The position numbers and the translations under genes were made by a program. The notes below the pieces were generated by a model, which was not told the origin of the DNA, made no database searches, and was given only the letters and a program-made list of their open reading frames with translations. This document shows positions 7,503 through 59,901 of a stretch of DNA of 60,638 nt, one piece after another. Source of the stretch: a virus; the IMG/VR virus record IMGVR_UViG_3300045988_153078; one strand, 5' to 3'. Numbering within the stretch: position 1 is the stretch's first letter; each line of letters begins with the position of its first letter.

Positions 7503-7658
7503 ATGAAGAAAAGAATAAGAAATAAAATGATGAATAATATTGGAAGGTATAAACTACACCAGTATTTGAAATATGCTCGACAATGGACTGTTACAGTTGA
7601 CTATAAATGCCATTTATACTTGATTTTGGATAATGGAAAAATAGTAAGAACTGATTAA
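7503..7658 (+). CDS. Small basic hypothetical protein (51 aa)
   Basis: Hand-translated MKKRIRNKMMNNIGRYKLHQYLKYARQWTVTVDYKCHLYLILDNGKIVRTD. Confidence 0.35.
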   Translation: MKKRIRNKMMNNIGRYKLHQYLKYARQWTVTVDYKCHLYLILDNGKIVRTD

Positions 7659-9437: not shown

Positions 9438-10163
9438 ATGAAATATATGGGCGGTAAGGCAAGGATTGCTAAAAGCATCCTACCTATAATCCTAAAGGAT
9501 AGAAAAGAGGGACAATACTACGTAGAACCCTTTGCTGGCGGATGTAATATTATTGATAAAGTAGTAGGAAATCGCATTGCCAATGATAGTAATCCATATT
9601 TGATACGAATGTGGGAAGCATTAACAAACGGTTGGAATCCTCCTTTGGTAATAGAAAGAGACCAATACAATGATGTTCGTGATTGTTATAATCGCAAAGC
9701 AGACAATTATCCAATGAACTATATTGGATGGGTTGGATTTGTTGGAAGTTATAACGGGCGTTTCTTTGACGGAGGATATAGCGGACATCGTGTTAAAATA
9801 AGAACAGGATTTAGAGATTATATCTCTGAGGCAATTAGAAACATTCTATGTCAAGTAGATGGATTAAAGGGGGTTTGTTTCTTAAATAAAGATTATAAGG
9901 ACTTAGTGTTACCATCTTGCTGTATTATATACTGTGACCCGCCTTATGATGGCGTAAAGAAATACGCCTATTCGATAAATAATACAGAGTTTTGGCAATG
10001 GTGTAGGGATAAGATAGCAGACGGACATAAGGTCTTTGTTTCAGAATACAATGCGCCTAATGATTTTGTCTGCATTTGGGAACAAGGCGTAAAAACGACA
10101 GTTAATCAATCTATAACTAAAAATGCAGTTGAAAGGCTGTTTGTACATGAATCGCAGTTATAA
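9438..10163 (+). CDS. dam: DNA N6-adenine methyltransferase (Dam-like, D12 class)
   Basis: N-terminal MKYMGGKARIAKSILPII, FAGGCN, catalytic DPPY in IIYCDPPYDG. Confidence 0.85.
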   Translation: MKYMGGKARIAKSILPIILKDRKEGQYYVEPFAGGCNIIDKVVGNRIANDSNPYLIRMWEALTNGWNPPLVIERDQYNDVRDCYNRKADNYPMNYIGWVGFVGSYNGRFFDGGYSGHRVKIRTGFRDYISEAIRNILCQVDGLKGVCFLNKDYKDLVLPSCCIIYCDPPYDGVKKYAYSINNTEFWQWCRDKIADGHKVFVSEYNAPNDFVCIWEQGVKTTVNQSITKNAVERLFVHESQL

Positions 10164-27230: not shown

Positions 27231-30200
27231 ATGGCGAATGAATTTAAAATAACGGATATTGTTGATAAAAAAGCTTTTGATGAATTAACTATCCTGATTG
27301 CTAAATTTAATGAAACCAAAGAGGCTTATGTGAATCTTACCAAAGATTTGGCAGGAGGTCTCAGAGTAAAACCGGGAGATCTTAAGGAATTAGCGGATAA
27401 AACAGAGAAGTATACCGGTATAATGAACCAATTGATTACTACTCAAAACGAACTGTCTGATATACAAGGTAGATACAAGGGTTTACTTAAGCAAATAGAA
27501 GAACAAACGGAGAAAAATGTAAAAGCTATTCTGGAAGAAGCAAAAGCTAATAAACTAAACAAAGATGCAGAGTTGGCAGCTCAAAAGATTGAGACGGAAC
27601 GATTAAGGCAAAAAAAATTAATAAATCAAGAAAATAAAAGATATAAATATACAGTAGAGGAGGGAATTTCAGCCCTTAGAATGGAAATTAAAACACTTCG
27701 GGATGCTGAGGAGCAGAATAAAATCCTTCGTGCCGCAAGAAAAGAAGTAGATATAACTACAAAAGAGGGTACTGAAACTATAAAGAAGTTTAATGAAGTC
27801 ATAGATCGTAACGATTCATTGATTAAAAAGAATTCTGATTCTTTAGTTCAGTCAAAGATGAATGTCGGCCGTTATAAAGAAGATATAAAAGCTGCTACAT
27901 CGGAGATATTAAAAGGTAATGTCTCTCTCAAAAACATGGGTAATCTGGCCAAGAGCACCGGAGGTCTATTAAAATCCAGTATGGGAACCGGATTACAAGA
28001 AGTCAGGATTGGAGTGGGTTCAATGATTAAGGGAATGGTAGGTGCACAGGCTGTTATTTCCGGCATACAACAAATGATAGGTCTGTTTAAATCGGGAGTA
28101 AGATCTATTATAGATTTTGAAGCTGCAAACAGTAATCTTTCTGCAATTTTAGGAACTACCTCTAAAAATATAAAAGATCTCACCGCAGATGCTCAACGCC
28201 TAGGGGCAGCTACTAAGTATACTGCTTCTGAAGCTACCGGACTACAAATAGAATTAGCCAAATTAGGATTTTCCCGGAAAGAAATATTGCAATCGACTGA
28301 AGGTATTCTCAAGTTTGCTCAGGCAACTGGTGCAGAATTACCTGAAGCGGCAGCGCTTGCCGGTGCTGCACTACGAATGTTTAATGCTGATACTTCTGAA
28401 ACGGAAAGATATGTGTCGGCAATGGCTATTGCAACTTCAAAGAGTGCACTTTCATTTTCTTATCTTCAGACAGCTATGCCCATTGTAGGACCTGTTGCAA
28501 AAGCATTTAATTTCCAGATAGAAGATACTTTAGCATTATTAGGGAAATTAGCAGATGCCGGATTTGATGCTTCTATGTCTGCTACTGCAACGCGTAATAT
28601 TTTGCTTAATCTTGCCGATGGTTCGGGTAAATTAGCAAAGGCGCTTGGTGGTCCGGTAAAGACACTCCCTGAATTAGTTGCTGGACTTAAAAAATTAAAA
28701 GATCAAGGAGTAGATCTAAATACGACATTAGAGTTAACAGATAAGCGCAGTGTTGCTGCCTTTAATGCTTTTCTTACTGCTGCTGATAAAATAGTTCCAT
28801 TACGTGAACAAATTACAGGAGTTAAAGGAGAATTGGATGACATGGCTAATACAATGGGGGATAATGTTCAAGGAGCTATTGCCGGATTATCTTCAGCATG
28901 GGAAGCATTTATGCTATCATTTTCAAAATCTACAGGTCTGATGAAAGATGTCTTAGATTTTTTTGCAGAAGGATTAAGAGAAGTCGCGAAACAGTTGAAA
29001 TCATATAATCAGATGCAGGATGATGCGGAAAATGAAGCAGTAGCTAGAGCACAAAAGGAGTTAGCCACATCCGATGTTCTGAAAAAGAATCGAGAAAATA
29101 TGGCTCGACTGTATAAAGAAAAAATTAAGGAGGGGATGTCGGCAGATGAAGCTGCTATATCTGCTAAAGAAGAATATATTTCTTCATTGGAAAGTACTTT
29201 TGAAATTGAAAATAGGGCATATAAAACAGCAATACATGATCGGAAACAAGCTGAAGAGGAATTAAATAAAACGGGATTGTTTTATTTTAATTCATCAAAA
29301 GGATTGTCTAAAAAACAATTAAAAGAAAACGTTGAGACTGCAATTGTAGCCGCTGCTGGTAAAAAGGCAATAGCATCTATAACAGAGTCTATTATTGAGG
29401 ATTTAAAAAAAGTAGATCTTCAGCAAGAAGAAACAAATCAAAACTTAACAAAAGAATTAACGGATAAAGAAAAAAAAGAATTAGAAAAGGCTGAAAGAGA
29501 GCGATTAAAAATAAAAGAGAACTATCAGCAGTCTGAATTGGATCTGATGGATGAAGGCCTTGAAAAAGAGTTAGCAAAGATCAGTTTTGAATATACCAAA
29601 AGAATTGCTGCCATAAAGGGAAATAGTGAAGAAGAGATAAAAACTCGTGAAAATCTTTCTAAAAAAATGCAAGAAGCCATAGAAGACAAAACTGTATCAT
29701 TCAATTTAGACAAAGAGAAAAAGGACTTGTCTAATAGGCTTGAGCTTGTAAAGGAAGGGAGTGAGGAAGAGTTGGAATTAAGGCAGAGATTGCTTCTTGT
29801 TGAACGTGCAAGAGCAGTATATTATGCAGATAAGACAGGAGAAGATGTCGTTGCCATTCAAGAGAAATATGATAAGAAATCTATTGATTTGATGGCCAAA
29901 TTTGCAGATCTAAGGAATAAAAAACTGCAAGAGCAATATTCTATGGATGCTATAATAGCTTCAGCCAGTATGCAGGAAGAATTGGATGCCTTATCTGCAA
30001 AATACACTAAGGGAGGACTGATTCAAAGAGAGGATTATGAGCGTGAAAAAGCGAAAATAACGCAAAAATATGCCATAGAACAAGCACGGGCGGCTATTGA
30101 ATTGGCTAAACAACAATTAAATACTCCCGGATTATCCCCAGATGACAAACTTAAATTAGAAAGGAAGATAGCAGAGGCTGAGATCGCTCTTGCTAAAGAG

Positions 30201-50074: not shown

Positions 50075-51406
50075 ATGGCAACAACATTCAGAATAGAGGC
50101 GTGCTCTTCCAGAAAGAGGCAAGATGGGACATATAATGTGAAGATACGGGTGACTCACAATAGAAAGATAAAAAGGATAGCAACATCAATCTATGTGAAG
50201 AAGGAAGATATGACGAGAGGGATGAAAATAAAAAATCAATCAATCCTTGACGAGCTTAACAAGATTATAGATTCATATCGTTCCAAATGCAATATACTAT
50301 CTTTGTCTATCAATTCCATGTCAATTGAAGAGGTTGTAGAATTTGTAACCAGAGTAGAGGAGGATAAAAAAGACATTGATTTTATACAGTTTGCCCGGGA
50401 GCATATTGAAAAAATGGATGCAGAAGGAAGAAAGGGTACCTCTTCTAATTACAAATGTACTATTAAAGCAATGATAGAATTTACCGGAAGGGAAGTAATC
50501 GGTGTGTCTGAGATAACTTATAAATTCTTAAATGACTTTTCTAAATTTATAATAGAAAAAAAAGAGAAAGCCAACAAAGAAGCTATTGCAAAGGGAAGGA
50601 GAGTAACATCAAATTGCATGTTATGCAAGTATACGTCTTGCATTAGGCATCTATATAATCAAGCAAAACTAAAATATAATGATGAAGAACGTGGAGTGAT
50701 AAGAATCCCATGGGCCCCATTTGCTAAATTTAAAGTACCACGGGAGGAGGTGGCGAGAAAGAGGGCGATACCACCTTTTATAATTAAAATGATAGCAGAT
50801 CTGCCATATAAATACAGAAGTAATATGAGAAAAAGCATAGAACAGAATTGCCGGTATAATTTAGCAAAGGACTGTTTCATATTATCTTTCTGTTTGATAG
50901 GAATGAACTCTGTCGATTTATATAATTGTGATGAATTGAAAGACAATATGATAAAGTACTTTCGTACAAAAACAGCTACAAGAAGGGATGACAAAGCAGA
51001 GATTCATGTAAAGGTAACCCCATTCATAAAAAATCTGATGGAAAAATATGAAGATAAGACAAAGCAGAAAGTTTTTCGGTTTAGCAGAATGTATGTAAAT
51101 CACACCTATTTTAATTCTGCTATAAACCAAGGCCTTAAGGAAATAGAGAAGGATATCAATGCGGAACTGAAACGAATGGGGAAAGATATAGTGATAGATG
51201 ATCTTGAGTTTTATGCTGCCCGTCATTCATGGGCAACTATAGCACGCAATGATTTGAAAATTGATAAGTATGTAGTACATGAAGCTCTAAACCATGTAGA
51301 TAGCAAAATGAAAATCACTGATATTTATATTGAGAAAGATTTCACTATGATTAATGAAGCTAACCGGAAGGTAATCGATTATGTTTTCAATAATCAAATG
51401 ACGTAA
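50075..51406 (+). CDS. int: Tyrosine recombinase / phage integrase
   Basis: C-terminal catalytic region FYAARHSWATIARND...HEALNH...ITDIYIE (R, HxxR, H, Y); a Bacteroides-type long N-terminal arm/SAM-like region. Confidence 0.9.
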   Translation: MATTFRIEACSSRKRQDGTYNVKIRVTHNRKIKRIATSIYVKKEDMTRGMKIKNQSILDELNKIIDSYRSKCNILSLSINSMSIEEVVEFVTRVEEDKKDIDFIQFAREHIEKMDAEGRKGTSSNYKCTIKAMIEFTGREVIGVSEITYKFLNDFSKFIIEKKEKANKEAIAKGRRVTSNCMLCKYTSCIRHLYNQAKLKYNDEERGVIRIPWAPFAKFKVPREEVARKRAIPPFIIKMIADLPYKYRSNMRKSIEQNCRYNLAKDCFILSFCLIGMNSVDLYNCDELKDNMIKYFRTKTATRRDDKAEIHVKVTPFIKNLMEKYEDKTKQKVFRFSRMYVNHTYFNSAINQGLKEIEKDINAELKRMGKDIVIDDLEFYAARHSWATIARNDLKIDKYVVHEALNHVDSKMKITDIYIEKDFTMINEANRKVIDYVFNNQMT

Positions 51407-52592: not shown

Positions 52593-52685
52593 CATGAAAA
52601 AGGAAAATGAGAATTTTATAAAACTTAACTATCTGTTTTTGATGTTTGGATTCATCTTAGAAAAAATATCAAGTATTTTTTCTAA
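52593..52685 (+). CDS. Very small hydrophobic ORF (30 aa) downstream of operator/promoter copy 1
   Basis: Hand-translated MKKENENFIKLNYLFLMFGFILEKISSIFF; convergent with 52682-53032. Confidence 0.2.
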
Positions 52686-53032
52686 GTGAATTTGCCTATT
52701 AGGTAGCCTATTACTGTGAAAATTGGAGGAATTATAAATTTATTGTATTCTTTCCACCATTTCCTGTAATATTCCCATACATATCCTCCTGAAGAAATAA
52801 ATTCCGCACCTTTAGCTAATAGGTAGACCTCTATTTCGTCATCCTCAGGGCATACAGGTCCTCTGATATATCGATCTGCTATCATTTCCTTAATTAATCC
52901 TATTTTAGTATACCATTCCAATTTAGATAAATTGCCTCTTTTTATTTTGGTATACTCTAAATTGATTTCTTTTAATATTTTATCTTTCTCTCTACTTTTG
53001 TGATAGAGATGCAATATTCTAGAATTCCACAT
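52682..53032 (-). CDS. C-terminally membrane-anchored protein in the lysogeny module
   Basis: 116 aa; C-terminal FIIPPIFTVIGYLIGKFT. Confidence 0.5.
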   Translation of the reverse strand: MWNSRILHLYHKSREKDKILKEINLEYTKIKRGNLSKLEWYTKIGLIKEMIADRYIRGPVCPEDDEIEVYLLAKGAEFISSGGYVWEYYRKWWKEYNKFIIPPIFTVIGYLIGKFT

Positions 53033-53070: not shown

Positions 53071-53128
53071 TATAGTGATAGTTTTATTCACTTTAAATCT
53101 TGTAGTGAATAAAACTATCACTATCTTT
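53071..53128. promoter_or_regulatory. Perfect 20-bp inverted repeat operator overlapping the rightward early promoter
   Basis: atagtgatagttttattcac (53071-90) and gtgaataaaactatcactat (53104-23), separated by a 13-nt spacer. TAtcTTTG box at 53121-28. Confidence 0.7.
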
Positions 53129-53134
53129 GCATCA

Positions 53135-53692
53135 TCAAAATCAGTATCTCAGTACCGATTTCCAAATATACAAAAGAAATTTGAAAAATCAATTCTGGGG
53201 GACAAGTCTTAAAGGAACTTGGTAGATTTTGATAGCGCTCTTGCATCAGTTTACAGCTTCTCCTTTTTTAGTGAGCGGAACTCTACATTCCGGATGCAGA
53301 CATGTTGGACATCTCCGTGTGAAGATGCACGGTACCGTACAATGGGGCAATCATGCAACTGCCCGAGGGGAAACAGTACGATGGAGTACCCGGCATGATA
53401 ATCGTGAGCGTAATGCGCTGCTTGTAGGTAATGGGAAGCCTTTCACGATGAAAAATAATAATCAGCACAGATTTATGAACTAATGTAAAGCGTCCGATAC
53501 AGTCCTATATGAATCGGTATAAAGTATGTAGTGTTGGGGGCGGCTACACACGCTTAACAAGATATACGAGATCGCCTCGCGTCAGTAGGCGGATTTCCTT
53601 CCCGTAAAATTCGGGCGAAGAAACGTATTGTTGCGTTGAAGGAAACAATTTAAATAGATGGTTATTCGGAAATTCCGAACAACCACCACCAA
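53135..53692 (+). ncRNA. Candidate large structured ncRNA (boundaries approximate)
   Basis: No credible ORF between 53033 and 53918. GC is locally elevated (31 of 60 in 53281-53340 by hand count). Helices include 53401-07 with 53443-49 (closing a three-way junction), hairpin 53660-53684 (9 bp plus 1 mismatch) and hairpin 53598-53620. Confidence 0.4.
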
Positions 53693-53881
53693 GGGATAAA
53701 ATGGTCATAGGGAGCTAAGACTAAATGAACGGAAGTTCCAAGTGTACATAAGAATGGATGTCATCAAGACCGGTGCTGTTAGTAACAGGTTGAGTAGTTT
53801 AAGAATCGTAGGATAACCAATATACGGACGAAAGCGAGAAAGCAGACGATACTTGTGCAGGTTCGAATCCTGCTTATCCCT
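53693..53881 (+). ncRNA. tRNA-like element 2
   Basis: The acceptor gggataa (53693-99) pairs with ttatccc (53874-80). The D-arm-like hairpin is 53703-22, with a GGG loop. A GNRA hairpin gaac-ggaa-gttc occupies 53727-38. The T-arm is canonical: gcagg-ttcgaat-cctgc (53857-73). Confidence 0.45.
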
Positions 53882-53918
53882 CAACCCTTATAGTAATTTA
53901 AAATCATATATAATAACT

Positions 53919-54131
53919 ATGAATAAAATAAGTAAAGCAGCGCTATGCGTGTCGGCAATAATAGTATTATTGGGATATGCCGGAAGTTTTGAATATGCGG
54001 AAGAGATAGTGTACTCTCTTACTGAAAAGCAATATGAAGCGATAAAGAATGATTTAGGAGGCAAAGCAAGTGATAAGCAAATAGCAATGAAATATCAAGA
54101 AAATAAAGAATATTATGACTCGATTAAGTAA
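53919..54131 (+). CDS. Small protein with an N-terminal signal/TM segment (70 aa)
   Basis: MNKISKAALCVSAIIVLLGYAGS... Start moved to ATG 53919, because the tracked start at 53853 would overlap the tRNA-like T-arm. Confidence 0.45.
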   Translation: MNKISKAALCVSAIIVLLGYAGSFEYAEEIVYSLTEKQYEAIKNDLGGKASDKQIAMKYQENKEYYDSIK

Positions 54132-54360
54132 TAAGGAGAAAATTAATAATACAGAAATGATACCTTCAAAAGACAAACCGATCAGTAAAACGATCAATAA
54201 CATGAAAGTTGGGGATGTAGAAAAGTTCCATATCTCTAAGAGCCGATCTGTTAAGAACAGAGTCTATGACTATAATATTGAGCACATTGAAGAGGGCTTC
54301 TTGTGTAAAACGTGTGTCGAAAGGGACAAATTTATTATATGTGTGAAAAGAGAAAAGTAA
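54115..54360 (+). CDS. Hypothetical protein
   Basis: 81-aa ORF. Confidence 0.45.
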   Translation: MTRLSNKEKINNTEMIPSKDKPISKTINNMKVGDVEKFHISKSRSVKNRVYDYNIEHIEEGFLCKTCVERDKFIICVKREK

Positions 54361-54460
54361 ATATACGCCAAGTTCCTTTAAGACTTTGCGTGTTAAGTAG
54401 CCTGTGAAGGTGAACATTGTGAATTTCGTTTTTAACTCGATGTCAGTTTTGCGGCTGACA

Positions 54461-54526
54461 GGGCGGTAAGTATTCTAGGTGAAACGCTGCATATCAGAAA
54501 GACAGGTTCGAATCCTGTACCGTCCA
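54461..54526 (+). ncRNA. tRNA-like element 3: 66 nt with a truncated anticodon arm, G3:U70 and A73
   Basis: The acceptor gggcggt pairs with accgtcc, with g54463 opposite t54523. The D-arm places GG at canonical positions 18-19. The anticodon arm is only 3 bp with a 5-nt loop (54487-97). The T-arm is acagg-ttcgaat-cctgt. Confidence 0.5.
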
Positions 54527-54578: not shown

Positions 54579-54607
54579 CCTGCATCAGGCGTGATGCAGG
54601 CATTTTT
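54579..54607 (+). terminator. Rho-independent terminator
   Basis: cctgcatca-ggcg-tgatgcagg (9-bp stem), followed by cattttt. Confidence 0.8.
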
Positions 54608-54642
54608 CTTACCATGATGTTTAATTTTTATATAATATACCA

Positions 54643-55249: not shown

Positions 55250-55873
55250 ATGGACGGATTAAATTTATATCAAAAGATACAGGCTGTTTCCAACGAGGTA
55301 AAGAACATCGAAAAAAATATGACCGTTGGTGCCGGTAGTTATGCCTATAAGGCTGTCCAGGATATAGATGTTACTCTTTGTGTGAAAGATGCCGAAACGA
55401 AATACGGTATAGTAAGTATTCCGGTTAAGCAAGAATTGATTAAATCAGAGGTGATAAGAACTATAAAAAAAGAAAATATAGAATCTATCACTTATGCTGA
55501 TATCGTTAAGATGACTGTAAGGATCATCAATCTTGATAAACCAGAGGAATATATAGAGGTTGAAAGTTTCGGGCGTGGGCTTGACAGCGGAGATAAGGGA
55601 TTTGGCAAGGCTTCTACTTATGCAAGAAAATATGCTTTACTAAACGCATATAAAATAGCAACGGGTGAAGATCCGGATGATGTAAAATCAAAAGAGATGC
55701 TTGCGATGAAAACACTTGATGAAAAAAGAGTTATAGTGAGCAATTTCCTTTTATCTGATAATAACAAATGCACCAGTTTTCTTCAGCGGTTCAACAAAGG
55801 TTCTATTGAGGAACTTGATGCGAAAGAGATTGAAATGATTTATGACGGTATGAGAAAGAGAGGTATTGTATGA
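55250..55873 (+). CDS. erf: ERF-family single-strand annealing protein
   Basis: YKAVQDIDV... and GFGKASTYARKYALLNAYKIATGEDPDD. Confidence 0.75.
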   Translation: MDGLNLYQKIQAVSNEVKNIEKNMTVGAGSYAYKAVQDIDVTLCVKDAETKYGIVSIPVKQELIKSEVIRTIKKENIESITYADIVKMTVRIINLDKPEEYIEVESFGRGLDSGDKGFGKASTYARKYALLNAYKIATGEDPDDVKSKEMLAMKTLDEKRVIVSNFLLSDNNKCTSFLQRFNKGSIEELDAKEIEMIYDGMRKRGIV

Positions 55874-59726: not shown

Positions 59727-59774
59727 CTTTGTTAACCTGCCTGCTCAGTCTGTGAAGATATGGCGGGCAAACAT

Positions 59775-59901
59775 GGATAAGTGACAGAATGGTATTGTAA
59801 AGAGGCATGCTACACCTCGAAAAACAAATGTAGTGCTGCCCGTAAATCAGGGGTCTGCTCGTAAATAATGCTGATTGGTGGTTCGAGTCCACCCTTATCC
59901 T
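59775..59901 (+). ncRNA. tRNA-like element 4
   Basis: The acceptor ggataag (59775-81) pairs with cttatcc (59894-900). The D-arm is canonical: acag-aatggta-ttgt (59784-98). The T-arm is canonical: ggtgg-ttcgagt-ccacc (59877-93). Between them are an extended irregular hairpin (59804-40, 14-nt loop) and a second hairpin, aatcag...ctgatt (59845-76). Confidence 0.5.

What the first reader, a model, noticed from the sequence alone, without database searches (positions are those of the whole stretch)
54461..54526. Anticodon-less 66-nt tRNA mimic carrying the alanine identity set (G3:U70, A73)
The acceptor stem is 7 bp (gggcggt with accgtcc), and its third pair is G54463:T54523. The discriminator is A54526. 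The T-arm is canonical (acagg-ttcgaat-cctgt). The D-arm places GG exactly at positions 18-19.

Only 11 nt occupy the place of the 17-nt anticodon arm: a 3-bp stem ctg/cag with the 5-nt loop catat. The element therefore cannot decode a codon.

Established knowledge: AlaRS charges acceptor helices that carry G3:U70 independently of the anticodon, and the tmRNA tRNA-like domain uses the same determinant. This suggests a chargeable but non-decoding RNA. Whether it acts as a decoy, a processing signal or something else is speculation.

No CCA is encoded; the sequence after the discriminator is cact.
Basis: partly seen in the sequence, partly recalled or inferred. Interest (0 to 1): 0.72.

Follow-up and report, generated by a model that had tools for sequence, protein, structure and literature searches.

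The report
Phage tRNA mimic lacking an anticodon
A very common Bacteroides fragilis prophage encodes a 66-nt tRNA-shaped RNA that keeps the mark for charging with alanine but has no anticodon arm; the closest described thing is the "tRNA-like-domain-only" tmRNA of mycobacteriophage DS6A, and its role (probably interference with ribosome rescue, or a tRNA decoy) is untested.

Summary
Window 54461-54526 (+) folds as acceptor stem, D-arm and T-arm, with G3:U70 and A73. A 3-bp/5-nt stub stands where the anticodon arm should be. ARAGORN calls nothing. Rfam's tRNA model matches end to end (29.7 bits), but only in sensitive mode.

It is not a one-off decayed copy. All 47 copies from B. fragilis prophages are 66 nt long. 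Diverged relatives (L106, L409) also carry anticodon-less forms, with compensatory stem changes.

Sub-tRNA-length tRNA-like elements in viral contigs are strongly biased to G3:U70: 7 versus 0 in complete scans, 11 versus 1 in truncated scans.

The closest known relative is the TLD-only tmRNA of phage DS6A. However, the window's element keeps a tRNA-like D-stem, so tmRNA membership is not shown.

The G:U pair is not absolute. It is A3:U70 in 4 of 47 copies and G3:C70 in one relative.

The best reading is a processed, probably alanine-chargeable, non-decoding RNA that acts in trans. Charging and function are inferred, not shown.

The element lies 75 nt outside a previously unnoticed 1.18-kb invertible DNA switch.

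The parts
54461..54526 (+). 66-nt tRNA-like RNA gene. It has a 7-bp acceptor stem (G3:U70), discriminator A73, a D-arm (3 bp plus an A.A mismatch, G18G19), a 3-bp/5-nt stub instead of the anticodon arm, and a canonical T-arm. No CCA is encoded.
   Evidence: Sequence. Rfam tRNA model positions 1-71 at 29.7 bits. Fold. 47 copies, all 66 nt. Covariation with relatives.
54442..54459 (+). Leader hairpin GTCAG-TTTTGCGG-CTGAC, ending 1 nt before the mature 5' end. A hairpin directly upstream is also seen before the L106 68-nt and L418 76-nt elements.
   Evidence: The role is inferred: end of the upstream transcription unit, or context for 5' processing.
54399..54411 (+). Motif AGCCTGTGAAGGT (pattern AGYCTGTGAAGRT) between the right inverted repeat and the element. 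The only other exact copy in the window (59747-59759) lies 16 nt upstream of another tRNA-like closure. It is also present upstream of the L106 element.
   Evidence: 4 matches at up to 1 mismatch against 0.23 expected; 0 of 100 shuffles reach 4.. Function unknown (promoter, operator or RNA loop motif).
54579..54608 (+). Terminator-like hairpin CCTGCATCAGGCGTGATGCAGG followed by CATTTTTCTT, 53 nt after the discriminator. It is the probable end of the transcript that carries the element.
54368..54386 (.). Right 19-bp inverted repeat (CCAAGTTCCTTTAAGACTT) of the invertible segment 53204-54386. This is context: the element lies 75 nt outside it and never inverts.
53204..53222 (.). Left 19-bp inverted repeat (AAGTCTTAAAGGAACTTGG) of the invertible segment. 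This is context: the segment's orientation decides whether ORFs 53853-54131 and 54115-54360 are read towards the element.

Best explanation
This is a genuine small-RNA gene of a temperate Bacteroides fragilis siphophage. The RNA keeps the acceptor stem, D-arm and T-arm (the elbow of the L-shape) and the alanine acceptor identity (G3:U70, A73). A 3-bp stub replaces the anticodon arm.

Proposed life cycle:
1. It is transcribed at the head of the rightward early region. Transcription either reads through from the adjacent invertible segment when that segment points right, or starts at its own signal near the AGYCTGTGAAGRT motif. It ends at the hairpin at 54579-54608.
2. RNase P cuts at G54461, and the 3' trailer is removed.
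3. CCA is added by the host enzyme, as for B. fragilis tRNA genes that lack CCA.
4. AlaRS, which ignores the anticodon, can charge it.
5. It cannot read a codon. It therefore acts in trans by occupying factors that recognise the acceptor/T-arm half of tRNA-Ala or tmRNA.

The best precedent is a TLD-only tmRNA, which inhibits trans-translation, perhaps by titrating SmpB.

Shown: the structure, its maintenance, the family and its G:U bias, and the genomic setting. Inferred: transcription, processing, charging and target.
For: - Structure and end-to-end tRNA-model match.
- Not a lone decayed copy: 47 copies are all 66 nt, and their only changes are in loops or keep pairing.
- The syntenic relative L106 (ERF 67% identical, same gene order, homologous upstream flank) has a 68-nt anticodon-less form with CCA encoded.
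- L409 and L410, found through the ERF protein with no constraint on pair 3:70, carry 70- and 64-nt anticodon-less forms with G3:U70 and A73.
- 94.6% of stem cells are paired, against 39-48% for slid controls. 7 of 16 pairs change on both sides. 0 of 500 shuffles reach the covariation score.
- Ala specificity of this acceptor frame: U70 gives tRNA-Ala in 3 of 3, C70 gives Val or Tyr in 117 of 117.
- Class-level bias: perfect-stem, non-ARAGORN short elements number 11 of 118 (U70) versus 1 of 115 (C70), and 7 of 13 versus 0 of 10 in complete scans; p = 0.005 and 0.0075.
- Precedent: the DS6A TLD-only tmRNA, and inhibition of tmRNA by such a molecule (PMC4131195, PMC11915505). The DS6A element was located at JN698994 28478-28557.
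- The host tRNA-Arg gene also lacks an encoded CCA.
- Established knowledge: AlaRS, RNase P, the CCA-adding enzyme and EF-Tu all accept acceptor/T-arm minihelices.
Against: - There are no expression, processing or charging data.
- G3:U70 is lost in 4 of 47 copies (A3:U70, on two backgrounds) and in the L431 copy (G3:C70). Charging may therefore be dispensable. This is compatible with the report that TLD-only inhibition does not need charging, but it weakens the 'chargeable' part.
- The element keeps a tRNA-like D-stem, and Rfam scores it best as tRNA, not tmRNA. SmpB binding is therefore doubtful.
- Rfam's tmRNA model also cross-hits an ordinary tRNA-Ala, so the tmRNA hit of the 78-nt relative does not prove tmRNA descent.
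- Related phages have a non-Ala, non-canonical 76-nt tRNA-like RNA at the same slot. This argues for a role of tRNA shape in general.
- Divergence among the 66-nt copies is too shallow to show purifying selection: the 150-nt downstream flank varies even less.
- No partner protein (SmpB, aaRS or nucleotidyltransferase) was found among the 40 ORFs tested.
Confidence: 0.5

Rival explanations
1. Generic tRNA-shaped processing or stability module. The element serves in cis as an RNase P/RNase Z cleavage site (tRNA punctuation) or as a 3' protective structure for the early transcript carrying ORFs 53853-54131 and 54115-54360. The Ala-type acceptor is merely inherited from a tRNA-Ala ancestor.
For: - In the window's orientation the two small ORFs are bracketed by tRNA-like closures at 53693-53881 and 54461-54526.
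- Related phages keep a tRNA-like RNA of a different, non-Ala type at the same slot.
- G:U is lost in some copies.
- A terminator follows directly.
Against: - The strong, specific excess of G3:U70 among short tRNA-like elements in unrelated phages is not needed for processing.
- The element stays in place when the ORFs are inverted away from it, in about half of all copies.
- The 78-nt and tRNA-array members sit in quite different contexts.
Confidence: 0.2
2. Decoy or sponge for a host factor that attacks or senses tRNA through the acceptor/T-arm. Candidates are tRNA-directed toxins or defence nucleases, CCA-end modifiers, or stringent-response sensing. On this view it is not specifically aimed at SmpB/tmRNA.
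For: - This phage group carries several different non-decoding tRNA-like RNAs: window 53693-53881 and 59775-59901; the 84-nt and 76-nt forms; and Leu-like forms with a triloop in the anticodon position.
- The element sits at the start of the early region.
- It is established knowledge that phages carry tRNAs to counter tRNA-targeting defences.
Against: - Most characterised tRNA-directed defences cut the anticodon loop, which is absent here.
- No literature precedent for an anticodon-less decoy was found.
- No specific target can be named.
Confidence: 0.15
3. Decayed tRNA-Ala pseudogene: a relic with a 6-nt deletion in the anticodon arm and no function.
For: - ARAGORN gives no call.
- The Rfam score is borderline.
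- The fold z-score is unexceptional.
- G3 to A variants exist.
- There is no measurable excess conservation over the flanks.
Against: - No homologue has a normal anticodon arm.
- Diverged relatives (67-85% ERF identity) retain perfect acceptor and T stems through compensatory changes, and each has its own short hairpin.
- Many unrelated phages have independent short G3:U70 forms, and hardly any G3:C70 ones.
- L106 encodes CCA.
Confidence: 0.07
4. Recombination site: attP, or a secondary att or cassette-exchange site that copies part of a host tRNA or tmRNA gene.
For: - The integrase targets a tRNA gene: tRNA-Arg(TCT) abuts int in L378, L382 and L383.
- The variable cassettes in the neighbouring slot end at tRNA-like 3' ends.
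Against: - att sites need only the 3' part of a tRNA gene. Here the 5' strand is present and pairs 7 of 7.
- The element is 3 kb from int and has an invariant position and length in 47 copies.
- It matches neither the tRNA-Arg at the att site nor the inversion repeats.
Confidence: 0.03

Closest known systems
TLD-only tmRNA of Mycobacterium phage DS6A (tmRNA Website tmID 11587; PMC4131195, PMC11915505)
   Same: It is phage-encoded and has a 7-bp acceptor stem with G3:U70 and A73, and a canonical T-arm. It has no anticodon arm and no tag reading frame, and is of sub- or near-tRNA size (80 nt at JN698994 28478-28557). It is not called by ARAGORN and is not annotated in the GenBank record. A molecule of this design is reported to inhibit tmRNA, perhaps by titrating SmpB.
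   Different: DS6A, like the 78-nt form in L001/L014/L018, has no D-stem. It has tmRNA-type motifs (GGUCGAC ... GCAC) and a long P2-like helix. The window's RNA keeps a tRNA-type D-arm and has only a 3-bp stub. Rfam scores it as tRNA rather than tmRNA. The host phylum differs (Bacteroidota rather than Actinomycetota), as does the genomic setting.
CDS-less tmRNAs of organelles (jakobid and other mitochondria, Rfam mt-tmRNA; ~65-bp genes in Mallomonadaceae plastids; PMC11915505)
   Same: They are about 65-nt alanine-type tRNA-like domains without an mRNA part. They are thought to act with SmpB although they cannot supply a tag.
   Different: They are cellular or organellar genes that co-occur with a dedicated SmpB and descend demonstrably from full tmRNAs. 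No such descent or partner is shown here.
tRNA-Ala and the alanine minihelix/microhelix substrates of AlaRS (established knowledge: Hou & Schimmel 1988; Francklyn & Schimmel 1989)
   Same: The acceptor determinants are the same: G3:U70, A73, G1:C72 and G2:C71. Real tRNA-Ala(CGC) genes with exactly this acceptor stem exist (L271, L278, L346).
   Different: There is no anticodon arm, so no decoding. Position 4:69 is C:G rather than the G:C of E. coli tRNA-Ala. The tertiary core is non-canonical (A8, an A12.A23 mismatch).
Other non-decoding tRNA-like RNAs (phage T4 stable RNAs species 1 and 2; mascRNA from MALAT1; viral 3' tRNA-like structures) - recalled from memory, not tested
   Same: They are tRNA-shaped, are processed by tRNA enzymes and do not take part in decoding.
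   Different: They have different architectures and, where known, different roles. None is defined by an Ala acceptor combined with deletion of the anticodon arm.

Membership tests
tRNA (Rfam RF00005) | Acceptor stem, D-arm and T-arm in cloverleaf register | tested here: met
   The model matches positions 1-71 at 29.7 bits against a gathering score of 29, but only with sensitive filters. It is not reported in the default gathering run.
tRNA (Rfam RF00005) | Anticodon arm: 5-bp stem with a 7-nt loop that presents an anticodon | tested here: not met
   11 nt (3 bp plus a 5-nt loop) stand in place of 17 nt. ARAGORN gives no call. All 47 copies are alike.
tRNA (Rfam RF00005) | Mature 3' CCA and aminoacylation | not testable with these tools
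   CCA is not encoded (CAC or CGC follows A73). The host tRNA-Arg gene also lacks it. The L106 relative encodes CCA.
tmRNA, TLD-only form (as in phage DS6A) | Acceptor stem with G3:U70, discriminator A73 and a canonical T-arm | tested here: met
   The same features are present in DS6A.
tmRNA, TLD-only form (as in phage DS6A) | D-loop analogue without a D-stem, with tmRNA-type conserved motifs; tmRNA is the best-scoring model | tested here: not met
   A D-stem is present (G10:C25, U11:A24, U13:A22) and covaries to 4 bp in L106 and L391. The best Rfam clan member is tRNA, not tmRNA. The 78-nt relative does score best as tmRNA (29.8 bits, below the gathering score of 47), but that model also hits a plain tRNA-Ala.
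tmRNA, TLD-only form (as in phage DS6A) | Helix P2 emerging where the anticodon arm would be | tested here: inconclusive
   Only a 3-bp stub is present in the window (4-5 bp in L106 and L409). There is a 7-8-bp helix in the 78-nt form and a longer one in DS6A.
tmRNA, TLD-only form (as in phage DS6A) | Binding to SmpB and effect on trans-translation | not testable with these tools
   No SmpB gene was found in the phage ORFs tested.
Alanine identity set (AlaRS substrates) | G3:U70 wobble pair plus A73 in a 7-bp acceptor helix | tested here: met
   In this exact acceptor frame U70 marks tRNA-Ala (3 of 3) and C70 marks Val or Tyr (117 of 117).
Alanine identity set (AlaRS substrates) | Conservation of G3:U70 across homologues | tested here: inconclusive
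   It is kept in 43 of 47 copies, in L106, L409 and L410, and in the 84-nt paralogue. It is A3:U70 in 4 copies and G3:C70 in L431. The class-level enrichment is strong.
Alanine identity set (AlaRS substrates) | Aminoacylation by AlaRS | not testable with these tools
   This needs an in vitro charging assay or an acid-gel or periodate assay in vivo.

The most novel reading that the evidence does not exclude
Phages of many lineages carry a so far unrecognised class of alanine-type, aminoacylatable but non-decoding mini-tRNAs. The class is distinct from tmRNA and comes in two architectures: a D-arm plus stub hairpin, as here, or TLD-like with a long helix. These RNAs would manipulate ribosome rescue or another acceptor-end-sensing host pathway. 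In this abundant B. fragilis prophage, the RNA would be the first product of the rightward early unit and would be coupled to a DNA-inversion switch whose orientation tracks the integrated versus free state.
Probability: 0.2. Interest if true: 0.8.

Novelty: new variant of a known kind. Interest (0 to 1): 0.55.

Why it matters
Standard tRNA finders and annotation pipelines miss these genes. ARAGORN, default Rfam and GenBank all miss both this element and the DS6A one.

Yet they are common. This element alone sits in a prophage whose neighbouring gene is indexed in 1203 blocks of public assemblies, mostly human gut, and at least a dozen further families turned up in limited scans.

If the RNA is charged and engages SmpB, EF-Tu or the ribosome, it would be a natural, compact inhibitor or re-router of trans-translation. 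That pathway is essential or near-essential in many bacteria and is a drug target.

The RNA is also a ready-made natural test of alanine identity, because A3:U70 and G3:C70 variants already exist in nature. Finally, it marks a phage group with an unusual repertoire of non-decoding tRNA-like RNAs next to an inversion switch in the lysis-lysogeny region.

Tried and rejected
- **Host identification by genome scan.** It still gave the U70=Ala / C70=Val,Tyr control. The host was then identified through cluster names.
- **Host tmRNA or tRNA-Ala comparison.** This was not possible.
- **Rfam tmRNA hit as proof of tmRNA descent.** Rejected after the same model hit a normal tRNA-Ala(GGC) in L107.
- **A covariance model of TLD-only forms to score the window.** Not built, because acceptor plus T-arm alone would make any Ala-type tRNA score.
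- **attP hypothesis.** Rejected.
- **Larger ncRNA hypothesis.** The 420-nt conserved non-coding stretch has no significant folding signal (z = -1.1 and -0.65) and no Rfam hit.
- **Sigma-70 promoter scan.** Uninformative for Bacteroides. A near-match to the Bacteroides -7 box (CAGTTTTG, 54444-54451) was seen by eye only.
- **Cultured relatives.** None in INPHARED.
- **Primary paper.** Mao et al. 2009 is not in the library, so it is cited second-hand through PMC4131195.
- **Literature searches** for anticodon-less tRNA-like decoys, mini-tmRNA and B. fragilis prophage inversions returned nothing specific.

Full report
**1. The observation**

Window 54461-54526 (+) reads GGGCGGUAAGUAUUCUAGGUGAAACGCUGCAUAUCAGAAAGACAGGUUCGAAUCCUGUACCGUCCA.

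- a 7-bp acceptor stem whose third pair is G54463:U54523;
- discriminator A54526;
- T-arm ACAGG-UUCGAAU-CCUGU;
- G18G19;
- an 11-nt CUG-CAUAU-CAG stub where a 17-nt anticodon arm belongs;
- CACU after the discriminator, so no CCA.

ARAGORN finds no tRNA or tmRNA anywhere in the window. Rfam at gathering thresholds reports nothing. With sensitive filters the tRNA model aligns end to end (model 1-71) at 29.7 bits. That is just above the family's gathering score of 29, and only the anticodon arm is collapsed.

The minimum-free-energy fold is the cloverleaf minus the anticodon arm. Its energy is unremarkable (z = -1.58). The structure persists when 226 nt of context are folded.

**2. Genomic setting**

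The window is a roughly 60.6-kb, apparently circularly permuted genome of a temperate siphophage. Identified genes include:

- small and large terminase, capsid-decoration and tape-measure-size ORFs;
- a Bacteroidota-type integrase at 50075-51406;
- Bro/ANT antirepressors;
- ERF recombinase at 55250-55873;
- NinG and YopX.

Its proteins are named in Bacteroides fragilis genome records. The same prophage is integrated in 200-550-kb gut metagenome contigs, next to tRNA-Arg(TCT) in some of them. The 81-aa protein just upstream of the element is indexed in 1203 blocks of public assemblies. No cultured relative exists in INPHARED.

The element follows ORF 54115-54360. It is preceded by a hairpin (54442-54459) and followed by a terminator-like hairpin with a T-run (54579-54608).

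**3. Is it a one-off decayed tRNA?**

No.

*Population data.* A scan anchored only on the flanks, pooled with all other loci, gives 47 copies, all exactly 66 nt. There are four variable sites:

- G3 to A, in 4 copies on two haplotype backgrounds;
- a U16A17 to A16U17 swap in the D-loop;
- U34 to G in the stub loop.

Nothing breaks a stem. Divergence is too shallow to prove selection, since the downstream 150 nt vary at a single site.

*A syntenic relative.* L106 has ERF and the next protein 67-70% identical, the same gene order and a homologous upstream flank. At the same place it carries a 68-nt form with a perfect D-arm, a 4-bp/4-nt hairpin instead of the anticodon arm, G3:U70, A73 and an encoded CCA.

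*Relatives found without presupposing G:U.* I fetched 60 loci through the ERF protein and scanned them for any T-arm plus 7-bp acceptor closure.

- L409 (ERF 85% identical) has a 70-nt form with G3:U70, A73, a compensatory 4:69 change and a 5-bp/4-nt hairpin.
- L410 has a 64-nt form with the identical acceptor.
- No relative has a normal anticodon arm.

*Covariation.* On a 7-sequence alignment, 94.6% of stem cells are paired, against 39-48% in slid controls. 7 of 16 pairs change on both sides. No shuffle out of 500 reaches the observed covariation score.

**4. Is the alanine identity meaningful?**

*In this acceptor frame.* In bacterial genomes, tRNAs with this very frame (GGGCGGU...ACCGNCCA) are tRNA-Ala when N70 = U (3 of 3) and tRNA-Val or tRNA-Tyr when N70 = C (117 of 117). 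The single wobble pair therefore carries the identity, as established for AlaRS.

*Across viral contigs.* I searched for sub-tRNA-length closures (gap too short for an anticodon arm) with a GGGC... acceptor.

- Two complete scans with a tighter pattern gave 7 of 13 for U70 against 0 of 10 for A/C/G70 (p = 0.0075).

Short, anticodon-less tRNA-like elements in phages are therefore overwhelmingly of the alanine/tmRNA type.

*Exceptions.* The pair is not inviolable. It is A3:U70 in 4 of 47 copies and G3:C70 in the L431 copy of the L106-type element.

**5. The family and the known precedent**

The short G3:U70 elements fall into two architectures:

- **(A)** a tRNA-like D-arm plus a stub hairpin (window, L409, L106, L391-393) or no hairpin at all (L094, L029);
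- **(B)** no D-stem and a longer helix in the anticodon position (the 78-nt form in L001/L014/L018, L388, L390/L397, L410).

The 78-nt form shares the window's acceptor stem exactly and has a compensatory T-stem. It sits in the head module of an unrelated environmental phage. It scores best against Rfam's tmRNA model, with the 292 central positions deleted (29.8 bits, E = 1.6e-8). I treat this with caution, because the same model also hit a plain tRNA-Ala(GGC) in L107.

The literature holds one precedent. [quoted passage not shown] 2009, which I could not read). About 65-bp CDS-less tmRNAs occur in some organelles (PMC11915505). I located the DS6A element at JN698994 28478-28557. It is 80 nt long, has G3:U70 and A73, and belongs to architecture B. 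It is unannotated and is not called by ARAGORN.

**6. Membership versus mechanism**

The window's RNA fails the tRNA definition because it has no anticodon arm. It also fails one defining tmRNA-TLD feature, because it keeps a covarying D-stem and scores best as tRNA. I therefore do not file it as a tmRNA. It shares with the DS6A type everything that matters for AlaRS, RNase P, CCA-adding enzyme and EF-Tu recognition. All of these accept acceptor/T-arm minihelices (established knowledge).

The most likely mechanism is a processed, CCA-tailed, probably alanylated, non-decoding RNA. It would act in trans on a factor that reads the upper half of tRNA-Ala or tmRNA. Interference with trans-translation is the only experimentally precedented option.

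The natural A3:U70 and G3:C70 variants suggest that charging may be dispensable. That fits the report that inhibition does not need charging, but it fits a purely structural role equally well.

**7. Rivals**

- *Cis-acting processing or stability module.* This is the strongest rival. In the window's orientation two tRNA-like closures bracket the two small ORFs. Related phages (ERF about 65% identical) carry at the same slot a different, non-Ala, non-canonical 76-nt tRNA-like RNA, which ARAGORN calls 'tRNA-???' with a 4-base gggt and an 8-10-nt loop. It does not explain the G:U bias across unrelated phages, nor the fact that the element stays behind when the ORFs invert.
- *Decoy for tRNA-directed host systems.* Possible, but without a nameable target or a precedent.
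- *Pseudogene and att-site readings.* Poorly supported (sections 3 and 2).

**8. Things found on the way**

*The invertible segment.* The element lies 75 nt outside a 1183-bp invertible segment (53204-54386) bounded by perfect 19-bp inverted repeats. Both orientations are common. Among contigs longer than 140 kb (integrated prophages), 10 are flipped and 1 is window-like. Among phage-length contigs, 4 are flipped and 11 are window-like (p = 0.0017). The caveat is that IMG/VR phage-length contigs may be trimmed proviruses.

In the window's orientation the segment's two small ORFs point at the element and the ERF operon. When flipped, they are co-directional with the genes on the integrase side.

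*Contents of the segment.* It contains a conserved 420-nt non-coding stretch followed by a cassette slot that holds alternative tRNA-like elements:

- a 189-nt closure in the window;
- an 84-nt G3:U70 form in L012 and L380;
- the 70-nt anticodon-less form in L409.

*Other items.* A third tRNA-like closure lies at 59775-59901. The motif AGYCTGTGAAGRT precedes both the 66-nt and the 127-nt elements, and also the L106 element.

**9. Verdict**

The finding is real and is not ordinary, but it has a documented relative. It is a new architectural variant, in a new host phylum and in a very abundant prophage, of the phage TLD-only / alanine mini-tRNA idea. The evidence gathered here indicates that such RNAs form a broad, overlooked class. 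Function remains inferred.

Noticed in passing
window 53204-54386 (inverted repeats 53204-53222 and 54368-54386): A 1183-bp invertible DNA segment is bounded by perfect 19-bp inverted repeats. It lies between the lysogeny-side genes and the early rightward operon. It is flipped in about half of all copies. Integrated contigs split 10 flipped to 1 window-like; phage-length contigs split 4 to 11 (Fisher p = 0.0017). It may be an inversion switch tied to the lysis-lysogeny state. The only recombinase seen among the ORFs tested is the integrase at 50075-51406.
   Followed up: partly
window 53650-53885 (closure 53693-53881): A variable cassette slot lies inside the invertible segment. The window has a 189-nt tRNA-like closure: GGGATAA/TTATCCC acceptor, G3:C70, U73 and a canonical T-arm. 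Near-identical phages instead carry an 84-nt element with the GGGCGGT acceptor and G3:U70 (L012 9175-9257; ARAGORN 'tRNA-??? tgcg'), a 156-nt variant, a 70-nt anticodon-less form (L409), or about 495 nt of other sequence (L385). The cassettes end at the tRNA-like 3' end.
   Followed up: partly
window 59775-59901: A 127-nt tRNA-like closure has a GGATAAG/CTTATCC acceptor, U73, T-arm GGTGG-TTCGAGT-CCACC and a D-arm-like GACA-GAATGGTA-TTGT. A long insert lies between the D region and the T-arm. It is conserved in L405-L408, where changes in a 4-bp-stem loop alter a possible anticodon (GCU versus GUU). Neither ARAGORN nor Rfam calls it.
   Followed up: partly
window 53229-53650: A roughly 420-nt stretch has no credible ORF and is more GC-rich than its surroundings. 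It is conserved at 78% identity in L409 and always lies directly upstream of the cassette tRNA-like element. It shows no significant folding z-score and no Rfam match. It may be a leader or promoter region, or a new ncRNA.
   Followed up: partly
window 54399-54411 and 59747-59759 (also L106 about 1963-1975): The motif AGYCTGTGAAGRT occurs shortly upstream of tRNA-like elements, usually in the loop of a hairpin. There are 4 matches at up to 1 mismatch in the window, against 0.23 expected.
   Followed up: partly
window 53072-53124: A perfect 21-bp inverted repeat with an 11-nt spacer (ATAGTGATAGTTTTATTCACT / AGTGAATAAAACTATCACTAT) lies just right of the leftward ORF 52682-53032. It may be an operator or a bidirectional terminator next to the left inversion repeat.
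   Followed up: no
L411-L433 (relatives with ERF about 65% identical), e.g. L420 about 7510-7620 and L418 3420-3496: Related Bacteroides phages carry further non-decoding tRNA-like genes. One type has class-II/Leu-like 5' halves (GGTAYCGTGGCGGAAYTGGTAGACGC...), is 96-146 nt long, and has a 5-bp/3-nt triloop hairpin in the anticodon position and A73. Another is a 76-nt TGGCAGA...G73 element with an 8-10-nt loop containing GGGUU. AlaRS and LeuRS both ignore the anticodon, so both types could be chargeable.
   Followed up: partly
L094 63-119, L029 4023-4080, L050 4430-4483, L107 5676-5734, L082 8743-8793: Unrelated phage contigs hold 51-59-nt G3:U70/A73 elements. Some have the anticodon arm deleted outright, leaving acceptor, D-arm and T-arm. 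Several lie inside large tRNA arrays of big phage contigs that also encode RNase P RNA (L107 4030-4350, 208 bits) or a full tmRNA (L029 4843-5286, 89.9 bits).
   Followed up: no
L386 (JN698994) 28478-28557: The TLD-only tmRNA of phage DS6A, mentioned in the tmRNA literature, is not annotated in the GenBank record and is not called by ARAGORN. It lies between gp33 and gp34.
   Followed up: yes
L378 11571-11645, L382/L383 10883-10957; L376 about 9536-9723: The prophage uses at least two integration contexts. In one, it lies next to tRNA-Arg(TCT) and an ABG_transport/DcuC-family gene (440-aa integrase variant). In the other, it lies next to DUF2589/LytTR genes (443-aa integrase, as in the window).
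   Followed up: no
L383 2288-3274, L385 8089-9075: Some otherwise near-identical prophages replace the ERF recombination module with a different module that includes a reverse transcriptase (RVT_1) or an HNH/NUMOD4 endonuclease, a few kb downstream of the 66-nt element.
   Followed up: no
L106 1504-1552 and 1761-1811: Two copies of the Rfam DUF2693-FD RNA motif (65 and 62.7 bits) lie between the homologue of ORF 53853-54131 and the 68-nt anticodon-less element in the syntenic relative. The motif was not detected in the window.
   Followed up: no
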